From contig JAUTXN010000137.1 of the NCBI GenBank assembly GCA_030838045.1, positions 1 to 52,356 of the forward strand: a stretch of 52,356 nucleotides of DNA. Reading direction: 5' to 3'. Within the stretch, counting starts at the first letter, position 1. Every line of letters begins with the position of its first letter. Below, one piece after another: positions 23,215 to 30,012 of this stretch. Below the pieces are notes generated by a model that was given only the letters and a program-made list of their open reading frames with translations, did not search any database and had not been told where the DNA came from. The translations under genes were made by a program, and so were the position numbers. Source of the stretch: Acidimicrobiaceae bacterium (GTDB taxonomy: Bacteria; Actinomycetota; Acidimicrobiia; Acidimicrobiales; Palsa-688).

Positions 23215-25874
23215 GGGGTTCCTCCGAGGGCCAGCAGTGCAGGGTCGGGTTTCTCGTGGGCGTAGGCCGGCCGGGGTTGGCCCCGCTCGGTGACGAAGAC
23301 CACGTTGTCGTCGGTCCGGTCGGAGTTGACGAAGGTCCGGAAGCGGGCCATGCGCTCCGGGTCTTCGATGGTCGCCTTCCATTCGCAGCGGTAGCCGGCC
23401 ACGTGGCGGGCCATGTCGACCTCGAACTCGGCGCACAGGCCGAGGCAGTCGTCGACGACCACCCGCCGGAGGTAGTCGAGGCCGCCATCGAGCTTGTTGA
23501 GCCAGGTGGCGGTGCGTTCCAGGCGATCGGCGGTGCGGATGTAGAACATCAAGAAGCGGTCGAGATAGCGGATCACCGTCTCGCGGTCGATGTCGCTGGC
23601 CAGGAGCACGCCATGCTGAGGCTTCAGCCCGCCGTTGCCGCACACATACAGGTTCCAGCCCTGCTCGGTGGCGATGACGCCGAAGTCCTTGCTCTGCGCC
23701 TCGGCGCATTCCCGGCTGCACCCCGACACCGCCGCCTTCACCTTGTGGGGCGATCGCAGTCCCCGGTAGCGCAGTTCCAGGTCGATGGCCAGCGCCGTCG
23801 AGTCCTGCACTCCGAAGCGGCACCAGTTCCGGCCCACGCACGACTTCACGGTGCGCAGCGCCTTGCCGTAGGCGTGGCCCGACTCCATCCCCGCGTCGAC
23901 CAGCCGCTGCCAGATGTGGGGGAGCTGGTCGACCCGGGCGCCGAAGAGGTCGATGCGCTGGCCGCCGGTGATCTTGGTGTACAGGCCGAAGTCCTTGGCG
24001 ACGTGGCCGATGGCGATGAGCTGGTCGGGGGTGATCTCGCCTCCCGGCACCCGGGGGACCACCGAGTACGTGCCGTCGCGCTGGAGGTTGGCCAGGAAAT
24101 GGTCGTTGGTGTCCTGGAGCGACGCCTGTTCCCCGTCGAGGATGTAGGCGTCCCCCAGGGTCGCGAGCATCGAGGCCACGGCCGGTTTGCAGATCTCACA
24201 GCCCCGACCCCGGCCATGGGCCGACAGCAGTTCGGAGAACGAGCCGATGCGCTGGGCCCGCACGATGTCGAACAGTTCCTGGCGGGAGAAGGCGAAGTGC
24301 TCGCACAGGTCGTTTCGGACCTCGACGCCCGCGGCCAGGAGTTCGTGACGCACCAGGCCGCTGACCAGGGGGATGCAGCCGCCGCAGCCGGTTCCCGCTC
24401 GGGTGCACGCCTTGACCCCGGCCACATCGGTGCACCCGTCGGCGACCGCAGCGCAGATCTGCTCCTTGGTCACGGTGTTGCAGGAACAGATGAGGGCGTT
24501 GCCGGCCAATGCCCCGACGCCGAGTCCGGCCCCGGCACCTTCGCCGGTGGTGCGTGCGGGGAAGATGAGCAGTTCCAGGCGCTCGGGGGTCGGCATGGCC
24601 CCTCGGCTCATCTGCACCAAGGTGTCGTACATGGTGGCGTCGCCCACGAGGATCCCCCCGAGTACCGGACGAACGCTTGTGGTGCCGCTGGTCCTCCCGC
24701 TGGTCCTCCCGCTGGTTCTCCCGTCGGCGGCGGCGGGGGCGGGACCGACCACCACCCGCTTGTACACCTTGGTCACGGGGTCGTCGAAGGTGATCGCCTC
24801 GGCACCTGGCGTGGTCCCGAAGGCGTCGCCGAAGCTGGCCACGTCCACGCCCATCAGCTTCAACTTGGTCGAGAGGTCGCTGCCCGTGAAGCTGCGGTCG
24901 CCGCCGAGGATCCGGTCCGCCACGACCGCGGCCATCTGGTAGCCCGGCGCCACCAGGCCCCACAGCCGTCCGACCGCCAGGGCGCACTCGCCGATGGCGT
25001 ACACGGCCGGGTCCGAGGTGCGGCACGCCTCGTCGACGACGACCCCGCCCCGTTCACCCATTGCGAGCCCTGCCGAGCGCGCCAGGTCGTCTCTCGGCCG
25101 GATGCCTGCGGAGAACACGACCAGGTCGACACTCAGGTCCTCGGGTGCGGCGCCCTGCGGGCTGGCGGCAGTGAAGCGCATTCCCTTCACCCGGCCGTCG
25201 GAGCCGCGCACGATCTCACTGGTGGCCGTTCCCGTGTGGACCACCACGCCGAGCTCCTCGACCCGCGAGCGCAGGGCGGCCGAGCCTCGGTCGTCGATCT
25301 GGGCCGGCATCAGGCGGGGCGCGAACTCCACCACGTGGGTTTCCAACCCGAGACTCTTCAGGGCATTGGCCGCCTCCAGGCCGAGCAGCCCCCCGCCGAC
25401 CACCGCCCCGACCCGGCAGCCTGTGGCAGTCGCAAAGTCTCGGATCGCCTCGAGGTCGTCGACCGTGCGGTACACGAAGCATCCTCGGGCGTCGCGCCCG
25501 GGTACCGGCGGTACGAACGGCACCGACCCGGTCGCCAGGACCACCGCGTCGTAGTCGACCCGGACACCACGCTGGGAGACCACGCAGCCGCGTTCCCGGT
25601 CGAGGGTGGTGACGGCGTCGCCCACATGCACGCTGAGCCCGACCTGTTCGAAGAAGCCCGGACGCACCAGCTCCAGATCCTCGGGCGATGCGCCCGCGAA
25701 CAGCGAGCTGAGCGCCACCCGGTCGTAGGCGACGCGGGGCTCTTCGCAGAAGGTCACGATGTCCCACTCGGCGGTGGCGCCCCGCTCGACCAGGGTTTCG
25801 AGCAGGCGGTGGCCCACCATGCCGTTGCCGGCCACGACGAGGGTCCGGCGCCGGCCGGACATCTCGAACTCCAT
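23211..25874 (-). CDS. nirB: nitrite reductase [NAD(P)H] large subunit
   Basis: The FAD/NAD Rossmann motifs are RTLVVAGNGMVGHRLLE and VGAVVGGGLLGLEAANAL. A BFD-like [2Fe-2S] segment reads ICSCNTVTKEQICAAV...CTRAGTGCGGC. The sirohaem/4Fe-4S region reads TGGQRIDLFG...SCVG..WCRFG...AVSGCSRECAEAQSKDFG. ATG 25874 verified. The 1282-aa track ORF is nirB plus an off-frame read through narK. Confidence 0.92.
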   Translation of the reverse strand: MEFEMSGRRRTLVVAGNGMVGHRLLETLVERGATAEWDIVTFCEEPRVAYDRVALSSLFAGASPEDLELVRPGFFEQVGLSVHVGDAVTTLDRERGCVVSQRGVRVDYDAVVLATGSVPFVPPVPGRDARGCFVYRTVDDLEAIRDFATATGCRVGAVVGGGLLGLEAANALKSLGLETHVVEFAPRLMPAQIDDRGSAALRSRVEELGVVVHTGTATSEIVRGSDGRVKGMRFTAASPQGAAPEDLSVDLVVFSAGIRPRDDLARSAGLAMGERGGVVVDEACRTSDPAVYAIGECALAVGRLWGLVAPGYQMAAVVADRILGGDRSFTGSDLSTKLKLMGVDVASFGDAFGTTPGAEAITFDDPVTKVYKRVVVGPAPAAADGRTSGRTSGRTSGTTSVRPVLGGILVGDATMYDTLVQMSRGAMPTPERLELLIFPARTTGEGAGAGLGVGALAGNALICSCNTVTKEQICAAVADGCTDVAGVKACTRAGTGCGGCIPLVSGLVRHELLAAGVEVRNDLCEHFAFSRQELFDIVRAQRIGSFSELLSAHGRGRGCEICKPAVASMLATLGDAYILDGEQASLQDTNDHFLANLQRDGTYSVVPRVPGGEITPDQLIAIGHVAKDFGLYTKITGGQRIDLFGARVDQLPHIWQRLVDAGMESGHAYGKALRTVKSCVGRNWCRFGVQDSTALAIDLELRYRGLRSPHKVKAAVSGCSRECAEAQSKDFGVIATEQGWNLYVCGNGGLKPQHGVLLASDIDRETVIRYLDRFLMFYIRTADRLERTATWLNKLDGGLDYLRRVVVDDCLGLCAEFEVDMARHVAGYRCEWKATIEDPERMARFRTFVNSDRTDDNVVFVTERGQPRPAYAHEKPDPALLALGGTP

Positions 25875-27415
25875 CAGACGACCACGTTGGCCGAGCCGGC
25901 CTTCTTGTTCAGGTACACGACCCAGGTGATGGCCGCGAAGCCCAGGTAGCAGACGAAGAACACCCAGAGGGCCGGGACCGACCAGTTGGAATGGGCCGCC
26001 GCCACCGAGACCTTGGCCGCGGGGGTCTTGGCCGCCTTCACCAGCGCCGACACGTTGAGGCTGGCTTGGCGCAGCGCCACTTGGATGAGCACCCCGCCGA
26101 AGGCCCCGATGGCGCCCGCGATGCCGATGACCGCGGCCGCCCGGCGCTTGTACTCGACCGCCGCCGCAGCCGGCTCGGCACCGGTCTCGGCCGCGTGCGT
26201 GCGACCGAGCAGGGCGAAGATCGAAGGGATCATCTTGTAGGTGGACCCGTTGCCCAGGCCGCTCAAGAAGAAGATCACCATGTAGGAGCCGAAGAACAGT
26301 GCGAAGCTGCGGTTCTCGACCCCGACGATCGCCGCTGCGGTGAACACCGCCATGCCAATGAAGACGACCAGGGTGACCCGGGCCCCGCCGACCTGGTCGG
26401 ACAGCCAGCCGCCGACCGGCCGGGACAGCGAACCGATGAGGGCGCCGACGAAGCCCAGCCCCGCCAGGTAGGTGGCGATGAAGGGGTGCCCGGCCAGGAA
26501 CTCCGGAAAGGTGTTCTTGATGACCAGCGGGAGGGCGAACGAGAAGCCGATGAACGACCCGAACGTGCCGATGTACAGCACCGACATGATCCAGGTCTGG
26601 CCATTGCGCAGTGCCATGACGTAGGACTTGGTGTCGGCCTTGGCCTGCGTGAGGCTGTCCATGAAGACCCACGCGCCGATCGATGCGATGGCGATGAGGG
26701 GCAACCACATCAGCCCGGCGTAGGCCAGGTGCACCTGGTGCTTGGGCAGCTTGACGGCCTTGGAGGCGACTCCGATGATGATCACCAAGGGCACGAACAG
26801 CTGGGCCACGGCGACGCCGAGGTTGCCCCCTGCGGCGTTCAGGCCGAGGGCGAAGCCCTTCTTCTTCTCCGGATAGAAGAACGAGATGTTCGCCATCGAC
26901 GACGAGAAGTTGCCGCCGCCGAGCCCGGCGGTGGCGGCGCAGAGGAACAGCACCCAGAACTGACCGCTGTGACTTTGGTGGGCCAGCCAGCCGCTCGGCA
27001 CGACCACCGCCAGCAGTACGGCGGGGATGAACAGCAGCGAGGCACTGATCGTGGTCCACGCCCGGCCGCCGAAGCGGGGCACGGCGAAGGTGTAGGGGAT
27101 CCGCAGGATCGACCCGATGAGGTTGGGCACCAGCGTGAGCATGAACTGCTCTGACAGCGACATCGTGATGCCAATGTTGGCCAGGTTGATGACGATGATC
27201 GTCCAGATGACCCAGACGCTGAATCCGATGTGCTCGGCGAAGATGGAGAGCGCCAGGTTTCGCTTGGCGATCTTCTGTCCTGTCTCACCCCAGAACTGTT
27301 CGTCGTCGGGCTCCCAGCGGTCGATCCAATGACCACGGCGAGGGGGATCGACCGTGGCGATGGTCGGGGAGTCCAAGGCGTCGGCTGTGGTGGGGGCATC
27401 GATGACCGTGCTCAT
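25874..27415 (-). CDS. narK: MFS nitrate/nitrite transporter
   Basis: It has twelve-TM MFS character and NarK signatures (GGGNFSSSMANISFFYPEKKKGFALGLNAGGGNLG-type box: GLGGGNFSSSMANISFFYPEKKKGFALGLNAAGGNLGVAV). ATG 27415 verified. The stop overlaps the nirB ATG by 1 nt (TGATG). Confidence 0.9.
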   Translation of the reverse strand: MSTVIDAPTTADALDSPTIATVDPPRRGHWIDRWEPDDEQFWGETGQKIAKRNLALSIFAEHIGFSVWVIWTIIVINLANIGITMSLSEQFMLTLVPNLIGSILRIPYTFAVPRFGGRAWTTISASLLFIPAVLLAVVVPSGWLAHQSHSGQFWVLFLCAATAGLGGGNFSSSMANISFFYPEKKKGFALGLNAAGGNLGVAVAQLFVPLVIIIGVASKAVKLPKHQVHLAYAGLMWLPLIAIASIGAWVFMDSLTQAKADTKSYVMALRNGQTWIMSVLYIGTFGSFIGFSFALPLVIKNTFPEFLAGHPFIATYLAGLGFVGALIGSLSRPVGGWLSDQVGGARVTLVVFIGMAVFTAAAIVGVENRSFALFFGSYMVIFFLSGLGNGSTYKMIPSIFALLGRTHAAETGAEPAAAAVEYKRRAAAVIGIAGAIGAFGGVLIQVALRQASLNVSALVKAAKTPAAKVSVAAAHSNWSVPALWVFFVCYLGFAAITWVVYLNKKAGSANVVV

Positions 27416-27555
27416 GTCGATCAGGAAAGACGACTTCTGTGTTCCGGCCGTTGCCGCCCGGTGAATCGTCGTGGTCCAGTCCCGCACGCCGGCGCCGCTG
27501 GTGGATGTGAGCTTTCTGACCCCAACCTGTCGGACTCGCGCTCCGGCACCGGCAG

Positions 27556-27621
27556 CCGATCAGGTGCCGATCAGGTGCCGATCAGGTGCCGATCAGGAGT
27601 CGATCAGGTGTCGATCAGGTG
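27556..27621. repeat. six head-to-tail 11-bp direct repeats (ccgatcaggtg x3, ccgatcaggag, tcgatcaggtg x2) in the narK/nnaR divergent promoter
   Basis: Read directly on lines 27541-27660. The array lies 67 bp upstream of the nnaR ATG (27688) and 141 bp upstream of the narK ATG (27415). Confidence 0.95.
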
Positions 27622-27687
27622 GACGTCAGCACCCGTTCTCCAGATGGACATCAAACGGGAACGAGCCGTTCACGGACCCGCCTCAGT

Positions 27688-28818
27688 ATGAATTACCCAA
27701 TGTCCTTACGTCCGCTGGACGGCTTCGTTGTCGGCATCACCGCCGACCGGCGCTGGGAGGAACAAGCCGAATTGCTGTCACGCCGTGGGGCGACGATCGT
27801 CCACGGGCCGACCATCACGACCCTCTACCTGGCCTCCGACGACAACCTGCGACTGGCCACCCGGGCCCTGATCGACCAACCTCCGGACTACCTGGTGGCG
27901 ACCACGGGGATCGGTATGCGGGCCTGGCTCGACACGGCGACGACATGGGGCGTGGTCAACGAGCTCACGGCTGCGCTGGGCCGGGCCCGCATCGTCGCTC
28001 GGGGTCCGAAGGCCGCAGCGGCACTGCAGATCGGCGGGCTCGACGTCTGGCAACGGTCACCCACCGAGCAGATGCAAGCTCTGACTGACATCCTGCTCGC
28101 CGAGCCGTTGAAGGGCCGGCGCGTCGCGGTGCAGGAATACGGGATGGAGAGTCCAGAGCTGGTCGAGGTGCTGACTGGCGCGGGAGCGACCGTCGTCACC
28201 GTGCCGGTGTACCGATGGCGGGTCCCTGCCGACCTCGAACCGGCGCGCCGGCTGGTCAGGGCCGCCTGCTCGGGACAGCTCGACGCCATCACCTTCACCA
28301 GCGCGCCGGCGGTGCACAACCTGTTCGCCATGGCCGAAGCTCCCGGAGACGCCGACCTCCTCCGCCAGGCCCTGAATGGTCCGGTCACCGCGGCCTGTGT
28401 CGGACCGGTCTGCGCCGAAGGTGCCCGCCAGGAAGGCGTGGACGACCCCTTGACGCCGTCGGTGGGCCGTCTCGGGCTCCTGGTCCGGGCGCTGGGGGAT
28501 CACCTCAGCCAACGTCGACGGGTCTACCGCCTGGGGGGCCACGAGGTGGTCGTACAGGGCGGCGCCATCGAACTCGACGGTGCCGTCGACCAGCTGGCGC
28601 CCAAAGAGCGGGCGATCCTGGATCTCTTGGCCCGCAAGCCTGGGGCGGTCGTGGGCCGTGAGACCTTCCTCACCCGGGTGTGGGGATGCCCCGATACCGA
28701 TCCGCACCTGCTCGAAGTGGCCATCGGCCGCCTTCGCCGCCGGCTCGGGCCAGCCGGTGTGGCGCTCCAGGCGATCGCCGGTCGGGGCTACCGCCTCGAA
28801 CCCGACCAACCTTCGTAG
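27688..28818 (+). CDS. nnaR: NnaR-type regulator: uroporphyrinogen-III synthase (HemD)-like domain fused to an OmpR/PhoB winged-helix DNA-binding domain
   Basis: The HemD-like part is LDGFVVGITADRRWEEQAELLSRRGATIVHGPTI...VATTGIGMRAW...RVAVQEYG...AITFTSAPAV. The C-terminal wHTH is LAPKERAILDLLARKPGAVVGRETFLTRVWG...LLEVAIGRLRRRLG...IAGRGYRL. This architecture and its position next to narK/nirBD match the described Streptomyces/Mycobacterium NnaR. The start is ATG 27688 or 27700. Confidence 0.85.
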   Translation: MNYPMSLRPLDGFVVGITADRRWEEQAELLSRRGATIVHGPTITTLYLASDDNLRLATRALIDQPPDYLVATTGIGMRAWLDTATTWGVVNELTAALGRARIVARGPKAAAALQIGGLDVWQRSPTEQMQALTDILLAEPLKGRRVAVQEYGMESPELVEVLTGAGATVVTVPVYRWRVPADLEPARRLVRAACSGQLDAITFTSAPAVHNLFAMAEAPGDADLLRQALNGPVTAACVGPVCAEGARQEGVDDPLTPSVGRLGLLVRALGDHLSQRRRVYRLGGHEVVVQGGAIELDGAVDQLAPKERAILDLLARKPGAVVGRETFLTRVWGCPDTDPHLLEVAIGRLRRRLGPAGVALQAIAGRGYRLEPDQPS

Positions 28819-28866
28819 CGTCGTCGCGTCGTAGCTTCGTCGCTCGTCGCGTCGTAGCTCGTCGCG
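28813..28866. repeat. degenerate 7-8-bp tandem repeat TCGTMGC(G) x7, overlapping the nnaR stop codon
   Basis: The array reads tcgtagcg tcgtcgcg tcgtagct tcgtcgc tcgtcgcg tcgtagc tcgtcgcg. At a larger scale, a 17-mer (gtcgtcgcgtcgtagct / ctcgtcgcgtcgtagct) is repeated with a 23-bp period. Confidence 0.7.
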
Positions 28867-29886: not shown

Positions 29887-29998
29887 GGCCGCGTTGACCG
29901 TTTGACCGTCGGCCGGTCTCCCATCGGCCGGTCTGCCGGTCTGCCGGTCTGCCGGTCTGCCCGCCGGCCGCGTTGACCGGTTGGCCGTCGGCCCGTCT
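29887..29998. repeat. composite repeat: two ~33-bp direct repeats flanking (ccggtctg)x4
   Basis: The flanking units are ggccgcgttgaccgtttgaccgtcggccggtct (29887-29919) and ggccgcgttgaccggttggccgtcggcccgtct (29966-29998). Four perfect octamers lie at 29928-29959. The element sits in the convergent spacer between the EamA stop (29859) and the CapA stop (30013). Confidence 0.85.
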
Positions 29999-30012
29999 GC
30001 CGTCGGCTTCGT

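What the first reader, a model, noticed from the sequence alone, without database searches (positions are those of the whole stretch)
27556..27621. Six phased 11-bp direct repeats in the narK / nnaR divergent promoter
Seen in the sequence: ccgatcaggtg x3, ccgatcaggag and tcgatcaggtg x2 lie head to tail (66 bp). They sit 67 bp upstream of the nnaR ATG and 141 bp upstream of the narK operon ATG. Established knowledge: OmpR/PhoB-type winged-helix proteins bind direct repeats spaced about one helical turn (10-11 bp). NnaR carries such a domain and, together with GlnR, is reported to control narK/nirB/nasA genes in Streptomyces and Mycobacterium. Inference: the array may be a multimerisation platform (operator) for NnaR or another wHTH protein, placing up to six protomers on one DNA face. 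Alternatively it is a contraction/expansion-prone VNTR that changes promoter spacing in whole helical turns. I could not match the unit to the GlnR box (gTnAc-n6-GaAAc), and I do not remember the published NnaR motif well enough to compare.
Basis: partly seen in the sequence, partly recalled or inferred. Interest (0 to 1): 0.6.

Follow-up and report, generated by a model that had tools for sequence, protein, structure and literature searches.

The report
Young tandem repeat in nnaR promoter
The six 11-base repeats between the nitrate-uptake operon and its regulator gene are real. They are a recent, species-specific duplication of the outermost element of a conserved regulator-binding region, not a conserved operator, so the finding is a modest curiosity.

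Summary
Six head-to-tail 11-bp units occupy 27556-27621 between narK-nirBD-nasA (minus strand) and nnaR (plus strand).

The NnaR-operator reading is not supported:
- The published NnaR motif is an inverted repeat (CTCAC-N18-GTGAG). A conserved candidate lies outside the array at 27483-27511, next to GlnR-type boxes.
- Three related genomes lack the array, and the two closest carry only two degenerate units. The expansion is therefore young and lineage-specific.
- The genome holds 53 comparable short-period, non-3n-period arrays, nearly all non-coding and found in every type of spacer.

The unit is not random filler. Thirteen nnaR upstream regions share six phased 11-bp direct repeats. Four are GlnR-like, and two outer ones carry a conserved CAG core (typically TCAG). 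The array is the outermost repeat, amplified in exact phase.

An unrelated metagenomic lineage (L090) independently amplified the same outer elements as a 15-bp unit in four copies.

My verdict is a slippage-generated promoter VNTR sitting in the one insertion-tolerant spot between two back-to-back control modules. Binding by a GlnR-type winged-helix protein remains possible but untested.

This scan has reported similar promoter VNTRs before, on other DNA.

The parts
27556..27621 (.). Tandem array, 6 x 11 bp (CCGATCAGGTG x3, CCGATCAGGAG, TCGATCAGGTG x2). It is an amplified copy of the outermost direct repeat (DR6) of the nnaR control region.
   Evidence: It is absent or reduced in relatives.
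27622..27632 (+). DR5, GACGTCAGCAC. The core CAG is invariant in 13 of 13 nnaR upstream regions and lies in 11-bp phase with the array and with the GlnR-type boxes.
27633..27676 (+). Four phased 11-mers, DR4 to DR1, with pentamers TTCTC, GACAT, GGAAC and TTCAC. This is the inferred GlnR-type operator of nnaR.
   Evidence: Conserved blocks in A1 and the register table. GlnR box definition: gTnAc-n6-GaAAc (PMC3561978). nnaR is a strong GlnR ChIP target in M. smegmatis (PMC3662644).
27483..27511 (.). Candidate NnaR palindrome CGCAC-N19-GTGAG serving the narK operon.
   Evidence: CGCAC and TGAG are invariant columns in A1. The site matches the published motif in architecture and in its position next to GlnR boxes. 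The degenerate pattern alone is not rare in the genome.
27439..27465 (-). narK-side GlnR-type boxes, read on the minus strand as TTCAC-n6-GCAAC-n6-AACAC.
   Evidence: minus-strand read. The boxes are conserved in A1.
27516..27520 (-). GTCAG pentamer (CTGAC on the plus strand) at the distal edge of the narK module, facing the nnaR-side GTCAG across the variable spacer.
   Evidence: It is conserved in five of six genomes in A1. Its function is unknown.
27521..27555 (.). Spacer between the narK module and the array. CCCAACCTGTCG (27521-27532) is conserved. GACTCGCGCTCCGGCACCGGCAG (27533-27555) is non-repetitive lineage-specific filler.
   Evidence: In A1 this stretch aligns only loosely with G001 and G004 and is a gap in G003, G020 and G002.
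25874..27415 (-). narK, a NarK-family nitrate/nitrite MFS transporter and the first gene of the narK-nirB-nirD-nas operon.
27700..28818 (+). nnaR, a HemD + OmpR-type winged-helix fusion. The conserved start is ATG 27700. The ATG at 27688 is in frame but is not conserved outside the close clade.

Best explanation
The array is a young, lineage-specific tandem amplification of one 11-bp element, most likely produced by replication slippage.

That element is DR6, the outermost of six phased 11-bp direct repeats that make up the conserved control region of nnaR. DR1-DR4 are GlnR-type boxes. DR5 and DR6 carry a conserved CAG core (typically TCAG).

DR5 and DR6 already formed an imperfect direct repeat 11 bp apart in the ancestor, and that is the substrate slippage needs. 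Because the unit length equals the repeat period, the new copies stay in phase automatically.

The insertion sits at the only position in the 272-bp divergent region where extra DNA leaves both promoters' internal geometry intact:
- narK side: GlnR boxes plus the NnaR palindrome.
- nnaR side: DR1-DR6.

The array therefore behaves as a promoter VNTR. It is not required for nitrate/nitrite regulation. Its effect on expression is most likely nil or a modest modulation.

Shown: the array, its absence or reduction in relatives, the conserved flanking elements and the phase. Inferred: the slippage origin, the GlnR and NnaR site assignments, and neutrality.
For: 1. Alignment A1 of six orthologous narK-nnaR spacers. 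The array falls entirely in an insert. That insert is absent from G003, G020 and G002. In G001 and G004 (NnaR 93% and 90% identical) it carries only GATCAGCTGGG and GATCAGGCnGG. Every flanking regulatory block is conserved.
2. The units differ at 3 of 66 positions, which points to a recent expansion.
3. The 11-mer register table for 13 nnaR upstream regions, plus the L090 clade, shows the DR1-DR6 architecture. The window's units have the same register and core as DR6.
4. Genome context. The 4.0-Mb genome has 1204 TRF arrays scoring at least 50. Of these, 53 have a non-3n period, at least 3.5 copies and at least 80% match. They are nearly all non-coding and occur in co-directional (26), convergent (11) and divergent (5, plus this one) spacers, with 9 at contig ends. 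Eight have period 11, with unrelated units. The next two intergenic spacers in the window also hold arrays.
5. No dispersed copies of the unit pair exist in the genome. The dimer has 39 matches in one genome each of 185,579 species, and none lies beside narK or nnaR.
6. In a second clade the same spacer is hypervariable in length and sequence between conserved modules (A2). The spot is therefore insertion-tolerant.
7. No RNA family, sigma-70 consensus or significant fold lies in the array.
Against: - The amplified unit is a conserved, phased element rather than filler.
- An independent lineage, L090, amplified the same outer elements as CCAGATGTCCGTCAG in 4.1 perfect copies. Two hits at one site could reflect selection for more binding sites.
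- Units keep the T and A of the GlnR a-site (gTnAc versus aTcAg). The adenines 11 bp apart are the residues shown to be critical for GlnR binding (PMC3662644).
- PhoP-type operators with up to seven 11-nt repeats are known at nitrogen promoters (PMC3561978).
- Copy-number variation within the species could not be checked.
Confidence: 0.68

Rival explanations
1. The array is a copy-number-tunable operator extension. The winged-helix response regulator that reads DR5 and DR6 (GlnR itself or another OmpR-family protein) also binds the six extra in-phase units. This would extend an oligomer upstream, or titrate regulator locally, and so set nnaR and perhaps narK expression. Gain and loss of units would act like a promoter tandem repeat (PTR) switch.
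For: - The units are copies of a conserved phased element and keep exact 11-bp register with GlnR-type boxes.
- The same elements were amplified independently in L090.
- GlnR and PhoP operators are built of two to seven 11-nt direct repeats, with weakly conserved extension units (PMC3561978 and PMC2691820).
- Promoter tandem repeats change expression and vary in copy number in M. tuberculosis (PMC12817950).
Against: - The amplification is absent from the nearest species.
- The units lack the AC of GlnR pentamers and match the PHO core GTTCACC at only 4 of 7 positions.
- The L090 unit is 15 bp, so its copies are not helically phased. That argues against one-face stacking as the selected property.
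- No other 11-bp-spaced pairs of the core exist in the genome.
- Arrays of every period fill this genome's spacers.
Confidence: 0.2
2. The array is an NnaR operator, with six NnaR protomers stacked on one DNA face.
For: NnaR carries an OmpR-type winged-helix domain, and the array lies in its own divergent promoter.
Against: - Published NnaR sites are inverted repeats, CTCAC-N18-GTGAG.
- Such a site, conserved in all relatives, lies 45 bp outside the array.
- The unit contains neither half-site.
- Relatives with 81-93% identical NnaR lack the array.
Confidence: 0.04
3. The array is an assembly artefact or has a mis-estimated copy number. The genome is a fragmented draft of 380 contigs.
For: The genome is a fragmented draft, 89.7% complete. 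Tandem repeats are error-prone in short-read assembly.
Against: - The array is only 66 bp, shorter than a typical read.
- It carries three internal variant positions that anchor its order.
- It lies in the middle of a 52-kb contig.
- Sister species show homologous proto-units at the same place.
Confidence: 0.04
4. The array is an epigenetic GATC cluster. Six GATC sites 11 bp apart would act as a methylation-sensitive switch.
For: - The genome encodes one D12-class N6-adenine methyltransferase on contig C267.
- Only five other places in the genome have at least 6 GATC within 80 bp.
Against: - The methyltransferase hits no NCBIfam model, including the Dam equivalog, and overlaps an unknown 448-aa gene as in a restriction-modification pair. 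Its specificity is unknown.
- GATC observed/expected is 1.01.
- Relatives lack the cluster.
Confidence: 0.02

Closest known systems
Promoter tandem repeats (PTRs) / VNTRs of actinobacteria, e.g. the dop, lpdA-glpD2 and cysG-efpA PTRs of Mycobacterium tuberculosis (PMC12817950)
   Same: Both are head-to-tail, near-identical non-coding units just upstream of a promoter. Copy number differs between close relatives. A slippage-type origin is likely.
   Different: The Mtb units are 54-57 bp and duplicate whole promoter elements, and their variation within populations and effect on expression are documented. Here the unit is 11 bp and copies a single repeat of an operator-like region. Neither variation within the species nor any expression effect could be tested.
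GlnR boxes and PHO-box direct repeat units of Streptomyces and Mycobacterium (gTnAc-n6-GaAAc; GTTCACC; PMC3561978, PMC2691820, PMC3662644)
   Same: The period is 11 bp, the repeats are direct, and the location is a nitrogen-gene promoter. The array is in register with adjacent GlnR-type boxes. Known operators can hold up to seven units, with weakly conserved extension units.
   Different: The unit pentamer is ATCAG, not nTnAC or GaAAC, and it matches GTTCACC at only 4 of 7 positions. The six copies are nearly identical and species-specific, whereas real operators are conserved but degenerate.
NnaR binding site (CTCAC[A/C]-N16-[T/G]GTGAG; PMC6277429, PMC11162112)
   Same: Same regulon and the same intergenic region.
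   Different: The known site is an inverted repeat with a long spacer. A conserved candidate is present elsewhere in the region (27483-27511). The array has no such half-sites.

Membership tests
Promoter VNTR / tandem repeat | Head-to-tail near-identical units, non-coding | tested here: met
   TRF gives period 11, 6.1 copies and 94% match. The period is not a multiple of 3, and the in-frame N-terminal extension is not conserved.
Promoter VNTR / tandem repeat | Copy number differs between related genomes at the orthologous site | tested here: met
   A1 shows 6 units plus DR5 here, 2 degenerate units plus DR5 in G001 and G004, and 1 plus DR5 in G003 (unpublished), G020 and G002.
Promoter VNTR / tandem repeat | Copy number varies within the species or population | not testable with these tools
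Metagenome scans returned no same-species contig.
Promoter VNTR / tandem repeat | Copy number alters expression | not testable with these tools
   This needs reporter fusions.
NnaR operator | Inverted half-sites CTCAC / GTGAG separated by about 18 nt | tested here: not met
   The unit CCGATCAGGTG holds neither half-site. A candidate site lies at 27483-27511, outside the array.
NnaR operator | Conserved in orthologous promoters | tested here: not met
   The array is missing in G003, G020 and G002 and reduced in G001 and G004.
GlnR-type / OmpR-family direct-repeat operator | Direct repeats with 11-nt period, in register with core boxes | tested here: met
   The register table shows ATCAG x6, GTCAG, TTCTC, GACAT, GGAAC and TTCAC at positions 4-8 of consecutive 11-mers.
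GlnR-type / OmpR-family direct-repeat operator | Pentamers gTnAc / GaAAc with the conserved AC | tested here: not met
   The units read aTcAg, so T and A are kept and C is replaced by G.
GlnR-type / OmpR-family direct-repeat operator | Protein binding | not testable with these tools
   This needs EMSA or footprinting.
PHO box (PhoP DRu) | Core GTTCACC in 11-nt units | tested here: not met
   GATCAGG matches 4 of 7 positions.

The most novel reading that the evidence does not exclude
The nnaR control region of these actinobacteria is a six-unit phased operator. Its two outer CAG-core units are read by an OmpR-family regulator. Lineages would then repeatedly tune nnaR and narK expression by amplifying those outer units: 11 bp x 6 here and 15 bp x 4 in L090. 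This would be a copy-number-adjustable operator built by slippage.
Probability: 0.15. Interest if true: 0.6.

Novelty: new member of a known kind. Interest (0 to 1): 0.3.

Why it matters
If the array is neutral, it is one more intergenic VNTR in a repeat-rich, uncultured actinobacterial genome. It would be useful mainly as a strain marker, and as a caution that helical-turn periodicity alone does not indicate an operator.

Two by-products may interest people who study nitrogen control in actinobacteria:
- The nnaR upstream region has a conserved six-repeat phased architecture, with two uncharacterised outer repeats carrying a conserved CAG core (typically TCAG).
- Those outer repeats have been amplified independently in two lineages. 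This offers a natural copy-number series for testing how far GlnR-type oligomers extend.

Tried and rejected
- **Metagenome scan with the conserved left flank.** The pattern GATGTGAGCTTTCTGAMCCCARCCTGTCG gave 0 hits.
- **NnaR-based metagenome scan.** It gave 72 loci, the best 81% identical, and no same-species contig.
- **Genome-collection scan for the unit dimer.** It gave 39 scattered hits of 2-5 copies in unrelated phyla, none next to narK or nnaR. This does not support a conserved operator. I had no control unit, so I make no claim that this unit is unusually prone to amplification.
- **Dispersed 11-bp-spaced core pairs in the own genome.** None were found. The peaks at 3n spacings reflect coding periodicity.
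- **Rfam, sigma-70/terminator scan and DNA fold.** All were negative.
- **L030 array (15 bp x 6.3).** It sits upstream of a HemD-like gene with no Trans_reg_C domain and no narK neighbour, so I dropped it from the recurrence argument.
- **amtB promoters of the genome, as a check for CAG-core repeats beside GlnR boxes.** One GlnR-like box (CTAAC-n6-GACAC) was found, with no phased TCAG units. The check was inconclusive.
- **GATC methylation idea.** A D12-class methyltransferase exists but its specificity is unknown, and GATC is neither avoided nor enriched.
- **Genome-wide count of the degenerate NnaR pattern.** It gives 8-20 hits per spacer length. The site assignment therefore rests on positional conservation, not on the pattern alone.
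- **My crude gene caller.** It over-extends starts and covers only 73% of the genome. The spacer-type tallies are rough.

Full report
**1. Observation**

The sequence at 27556-27621 reads CCGATCAGGTG x3, CCGATCAGGAG and TCGATCAGGTG x2. Tandem Repeats Finder reports period 11, 6.1 copies, 94% matches and score 113.

- On the minus strand lies a NarK-family MFS transporter (27415..25874), followed without gaps by nirB, nirD and a Nas-type molybdoenzyme.
- On the plus strand lies a HemD + Trans_reg_C fusion that passes the NCBIfam equivalog NF005568.

The quoted distances of 141 bp and 67 bp are correct. However, the ATG conserved across relatives is the one at 27700, not 27688.

**2. Where the known regulatory sites are**

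The published NnaR motif is a partially degenerate palindrome, c-t-C-A-C-a/c-(16N)-t/g-G-T-G-a-g. It lies beside a GlnR box, with the start site downstream of the GlnR box (PMC6277429). The same motif was used for M. abscessus (PMC11162112).

In the window, CGCAC-N19-GTGAG sits at 27483-27511. Between it and the narK ATG the minus strand reads TTCAC-n6-GCAAC-n6-AACAC, which fits the GlnR box gTnAc-n6-GaAAc (consensus from PMC3561978).

The degenerate palindrome pattern occurs 8-20 times per spacer length in the genome. The assignment therefore rests on conservation. In alignment A1 of six orthologous spacers, CGCAC, TGAG and the GlnR-type pentamers are invariant columns. The array contains none of these motifs.

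**3. Comparison with relatives**

NnaR orthologues were found in all four other species of the genus (81-93% identity) and in a sister genus (G020, 82%). All six spacers are narK-nnaR divergent.

Alignment A1 shows the following:
- The array lies wholly inside an insert.
- G003, G020 and G002 lack that insert. There, CTGTCG is followed almost directly by (T)CAGGTTGACGTCAG.
- G001 and G004 have a 57-bp insert holding only two degenerate units, GATCAGCTGGG and GATCAGGCnGG.

G003 is an unpublished genome. The conclusion stands on G020 and G002 alone.

The six-copy array therefore arose after this species split from its nearest sampled relatives. The units differ at only 3 of 66 positions, which fits a recent origin.

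**4. The unit is a copy of a conserved phased element**

I anchored 13 nnaR upstream regions on the proximal TTCAC and cut them into 11-mers. G003 and G008 in that set are unpublished. Six phased direct repeats appear:
- DR1: ccGTTCACgga
- DR2: nnGGgAACnnn
- DR3: atnGAcAnnnn
- DR4: ccGTTCTTCAG (TTCAC in two loci)
- DR5: nnnGTCAGnnn (CAG in 13 of 13)
- DR6: nnnnTCAGGnn (CAG in 9 of 13, with AAG or TAG in three)

The same architecture holds in a more distant clade with NnaR about 61% identical.

DR1-DR4 fit GlnR boxes. nnaR is a strong GlnR ChIP-seq target in M. smegmatis (PMC3662644). DR5 and DR6 are uncharacterised.

The window's units have the DR6 core and continue the register exactly. The pentamers at positions 4-8 read ATCAG x6, GTCAG, TTCTC, GACAT, GGAAC and TTCAC. 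DR5 and DR6 were already an imperfect 11-bp-spaced direct repeat in the ancestor, which is the substrate that slippage needs.

**5. A second, independent amplification**

Metagenomic contig Ga0136617_10001671 (L090) also has a HemD + Trans_reg_C gene divergent from an MFS transporter. It carries CCAGATGTCCGTCAG x4.1 (100% match) between its NnaR palindrome and its GlnR-type boxes. Its relatives L089, L104, L091 and L092 have one copy, and a non-homologous filler of variable length.

The L090 unit spans the cores of DR6 and DR5. Its 15-bp period does not keep helical phase.

**6. Genome context**

The 4.0-Mb draft has 1204 TRF arrays scoring at least 50. Of these, 53 have a non-3n period, at least 3.5 copies and at least 80% match.

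| Period (bp) | 7 | 8 | 10 | 11 | 13 | 14 | longer |
|---|---|---|---|---|---|---|---|
| Arrays | 7 | 12 | 3 | 8 | 4 | 5 | 14 |

Their units are unrelated. They are nearly all non-coding and occur in every type of spacer (the gene calls are crude). The two spacers after nnaR also hold arrays.

The unit pair occurs nowhere else in the genome. The dimer has only 39 scattered, unrelated matches across one genome for each of 185,579 species, and none lies next to narK or nnaR.

**7. Mechanism**

I commit to the following. The array is a slippage-generated promoter VNTR that amplified DR6. It sits at the junction between two back-to-back control modules, which is the only place where extra DNA leaves each promoter's internal geometry intact. 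A1 and A2 both show this junction to be hypervariable.

It moves the narK module (GlnR boxes plus NnaR palindrome) and the nnaR module (DR1-DR6) about 33 bp further apart than in G001 and G004, and about 83 bp further apart than in the other three relatives.

It is probably untranscribed, because both sets of activator sites lie between it and the genes. This point is inferred.

My estimates:
- About 0.68 that its effect is nil or modest.
- About 0.2 that the in-phase copies are bound by the regulator that reads DR5 and DR6, and so tune expression.

In favour of the second reading:
- The amplified element is conserved.
- The amplification has recurred in an independent lineage.
- The T and A of the GlnR a-site are retained, and the adenines are the critical contacts.
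- Known PhoP and GlnR operators run to two to seven 11-nt units with weak extension units.

Against it:
- The amplification is not conserved.
- The units lack the AC dinucleotide.
- The second case is out of phase.
- The genome is generally rich in such arrays.

**8. Other checks**

There is no Rfam match, no sigma-70 consensus and no significant fold.

A D12-class methyltransferase exists, but its specificity is unknown and GATC is not biased. I rate the GATC-switch idea at about 2%.

**9. Verdict**

The NnaR-operator idea is rejected. The VNTR alternative is supported. A generic winged-helix platform idea survives as a minority reading with a concrete test.

This is a new member of a known kind (a promoter tandem repeat). 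Earlier follow-ups in this scan reached similar conclusions on other genomes.

Noticed in passing
L090:1382-1442 (contig Ga0136617_10001671): A perfect 15-bp x 4.1 array, CCAGATGTCCGTCAG, sits at the homologous position of another narK-nnaR divergent promoter (NnaR about 61% identical). Its relatives L089, L104, L091 and L092 have a single copy.
   Followed up: yes
window 27622-27676 and 12 related loci: The nnaR upstream regions share six phased 11-bp direct repeats. The two outer ones, with a conserved CAG core (typically TCAG), match no motif I know and are conserved across several genera.
   Followed up: partly
whole genome G000: Short tandem repeats are very dense: 1204 TRF arrays scoring at least 50 in 4.0 Mb. 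Of these, 53 are non-3n arrays with at least 3.5 copies, nearly all intergenic. Many contig ends fall in arrays.
   Followed up: partly
window 28813-28866 and 29908-30007: Two further short-period arrays lie in the next two intergenic spacers, at the nnaR stop and in the convergent EamA/PGA_cap spacer. G001 and G004 carry different arrays in the convergent spacer (L007:3638-3803, L008:3613-3640), which suggests fast turnover.
   Followed up: partly
window 27688 vs 27700: The first in-frame ATG of nnaR (27688) is replaced by ATC in L082, L085 and L086. The ATG at 27700 (MSLRP...) is conserved, so 27700 is the likelier start.
   Followed up: partly
L067:7254-7300, L055, L061, L056, L066: The same CGATCAGGTG unit forms 3-5-copy tandem arrays in unrelated genomes (a Kineosporiaceae MAG, Acidobacteria, Streptosporangium, Binatia and Acidimicrobiaceae). 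No control unit was scanned, so I cannot say whether this unit is unusually prone to amplification.
   Followed up: no
window 27417-27425: TCGATCAGG, the first nine bases of the T-type unit, lies directly next to the narK start codon. G001 has TCGACCAGG there. This is probably chance or ancestral similarity.
   Followed up: no
G000:C267:689-3129 (L154): The genome has a single D12-class N6-adenine DNA methyltransferase that hits no NCBIfam model, including the Dam equivalog. Its start overlaps the end of an unannotated 448-aa gene, so it may be a restriction-modification pair. CTAG is strongly avoided in the genome (O/E 0.38).
   Followed up: partly
L030:1396-1489 (G021:C69): A 15-bp x 6.3 array, CGCCGGTTAGCGTGG, lies immediately upstream of a HemD-only gene that has no winged-helix domain and no narK neighbour.
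   Followed up: partly
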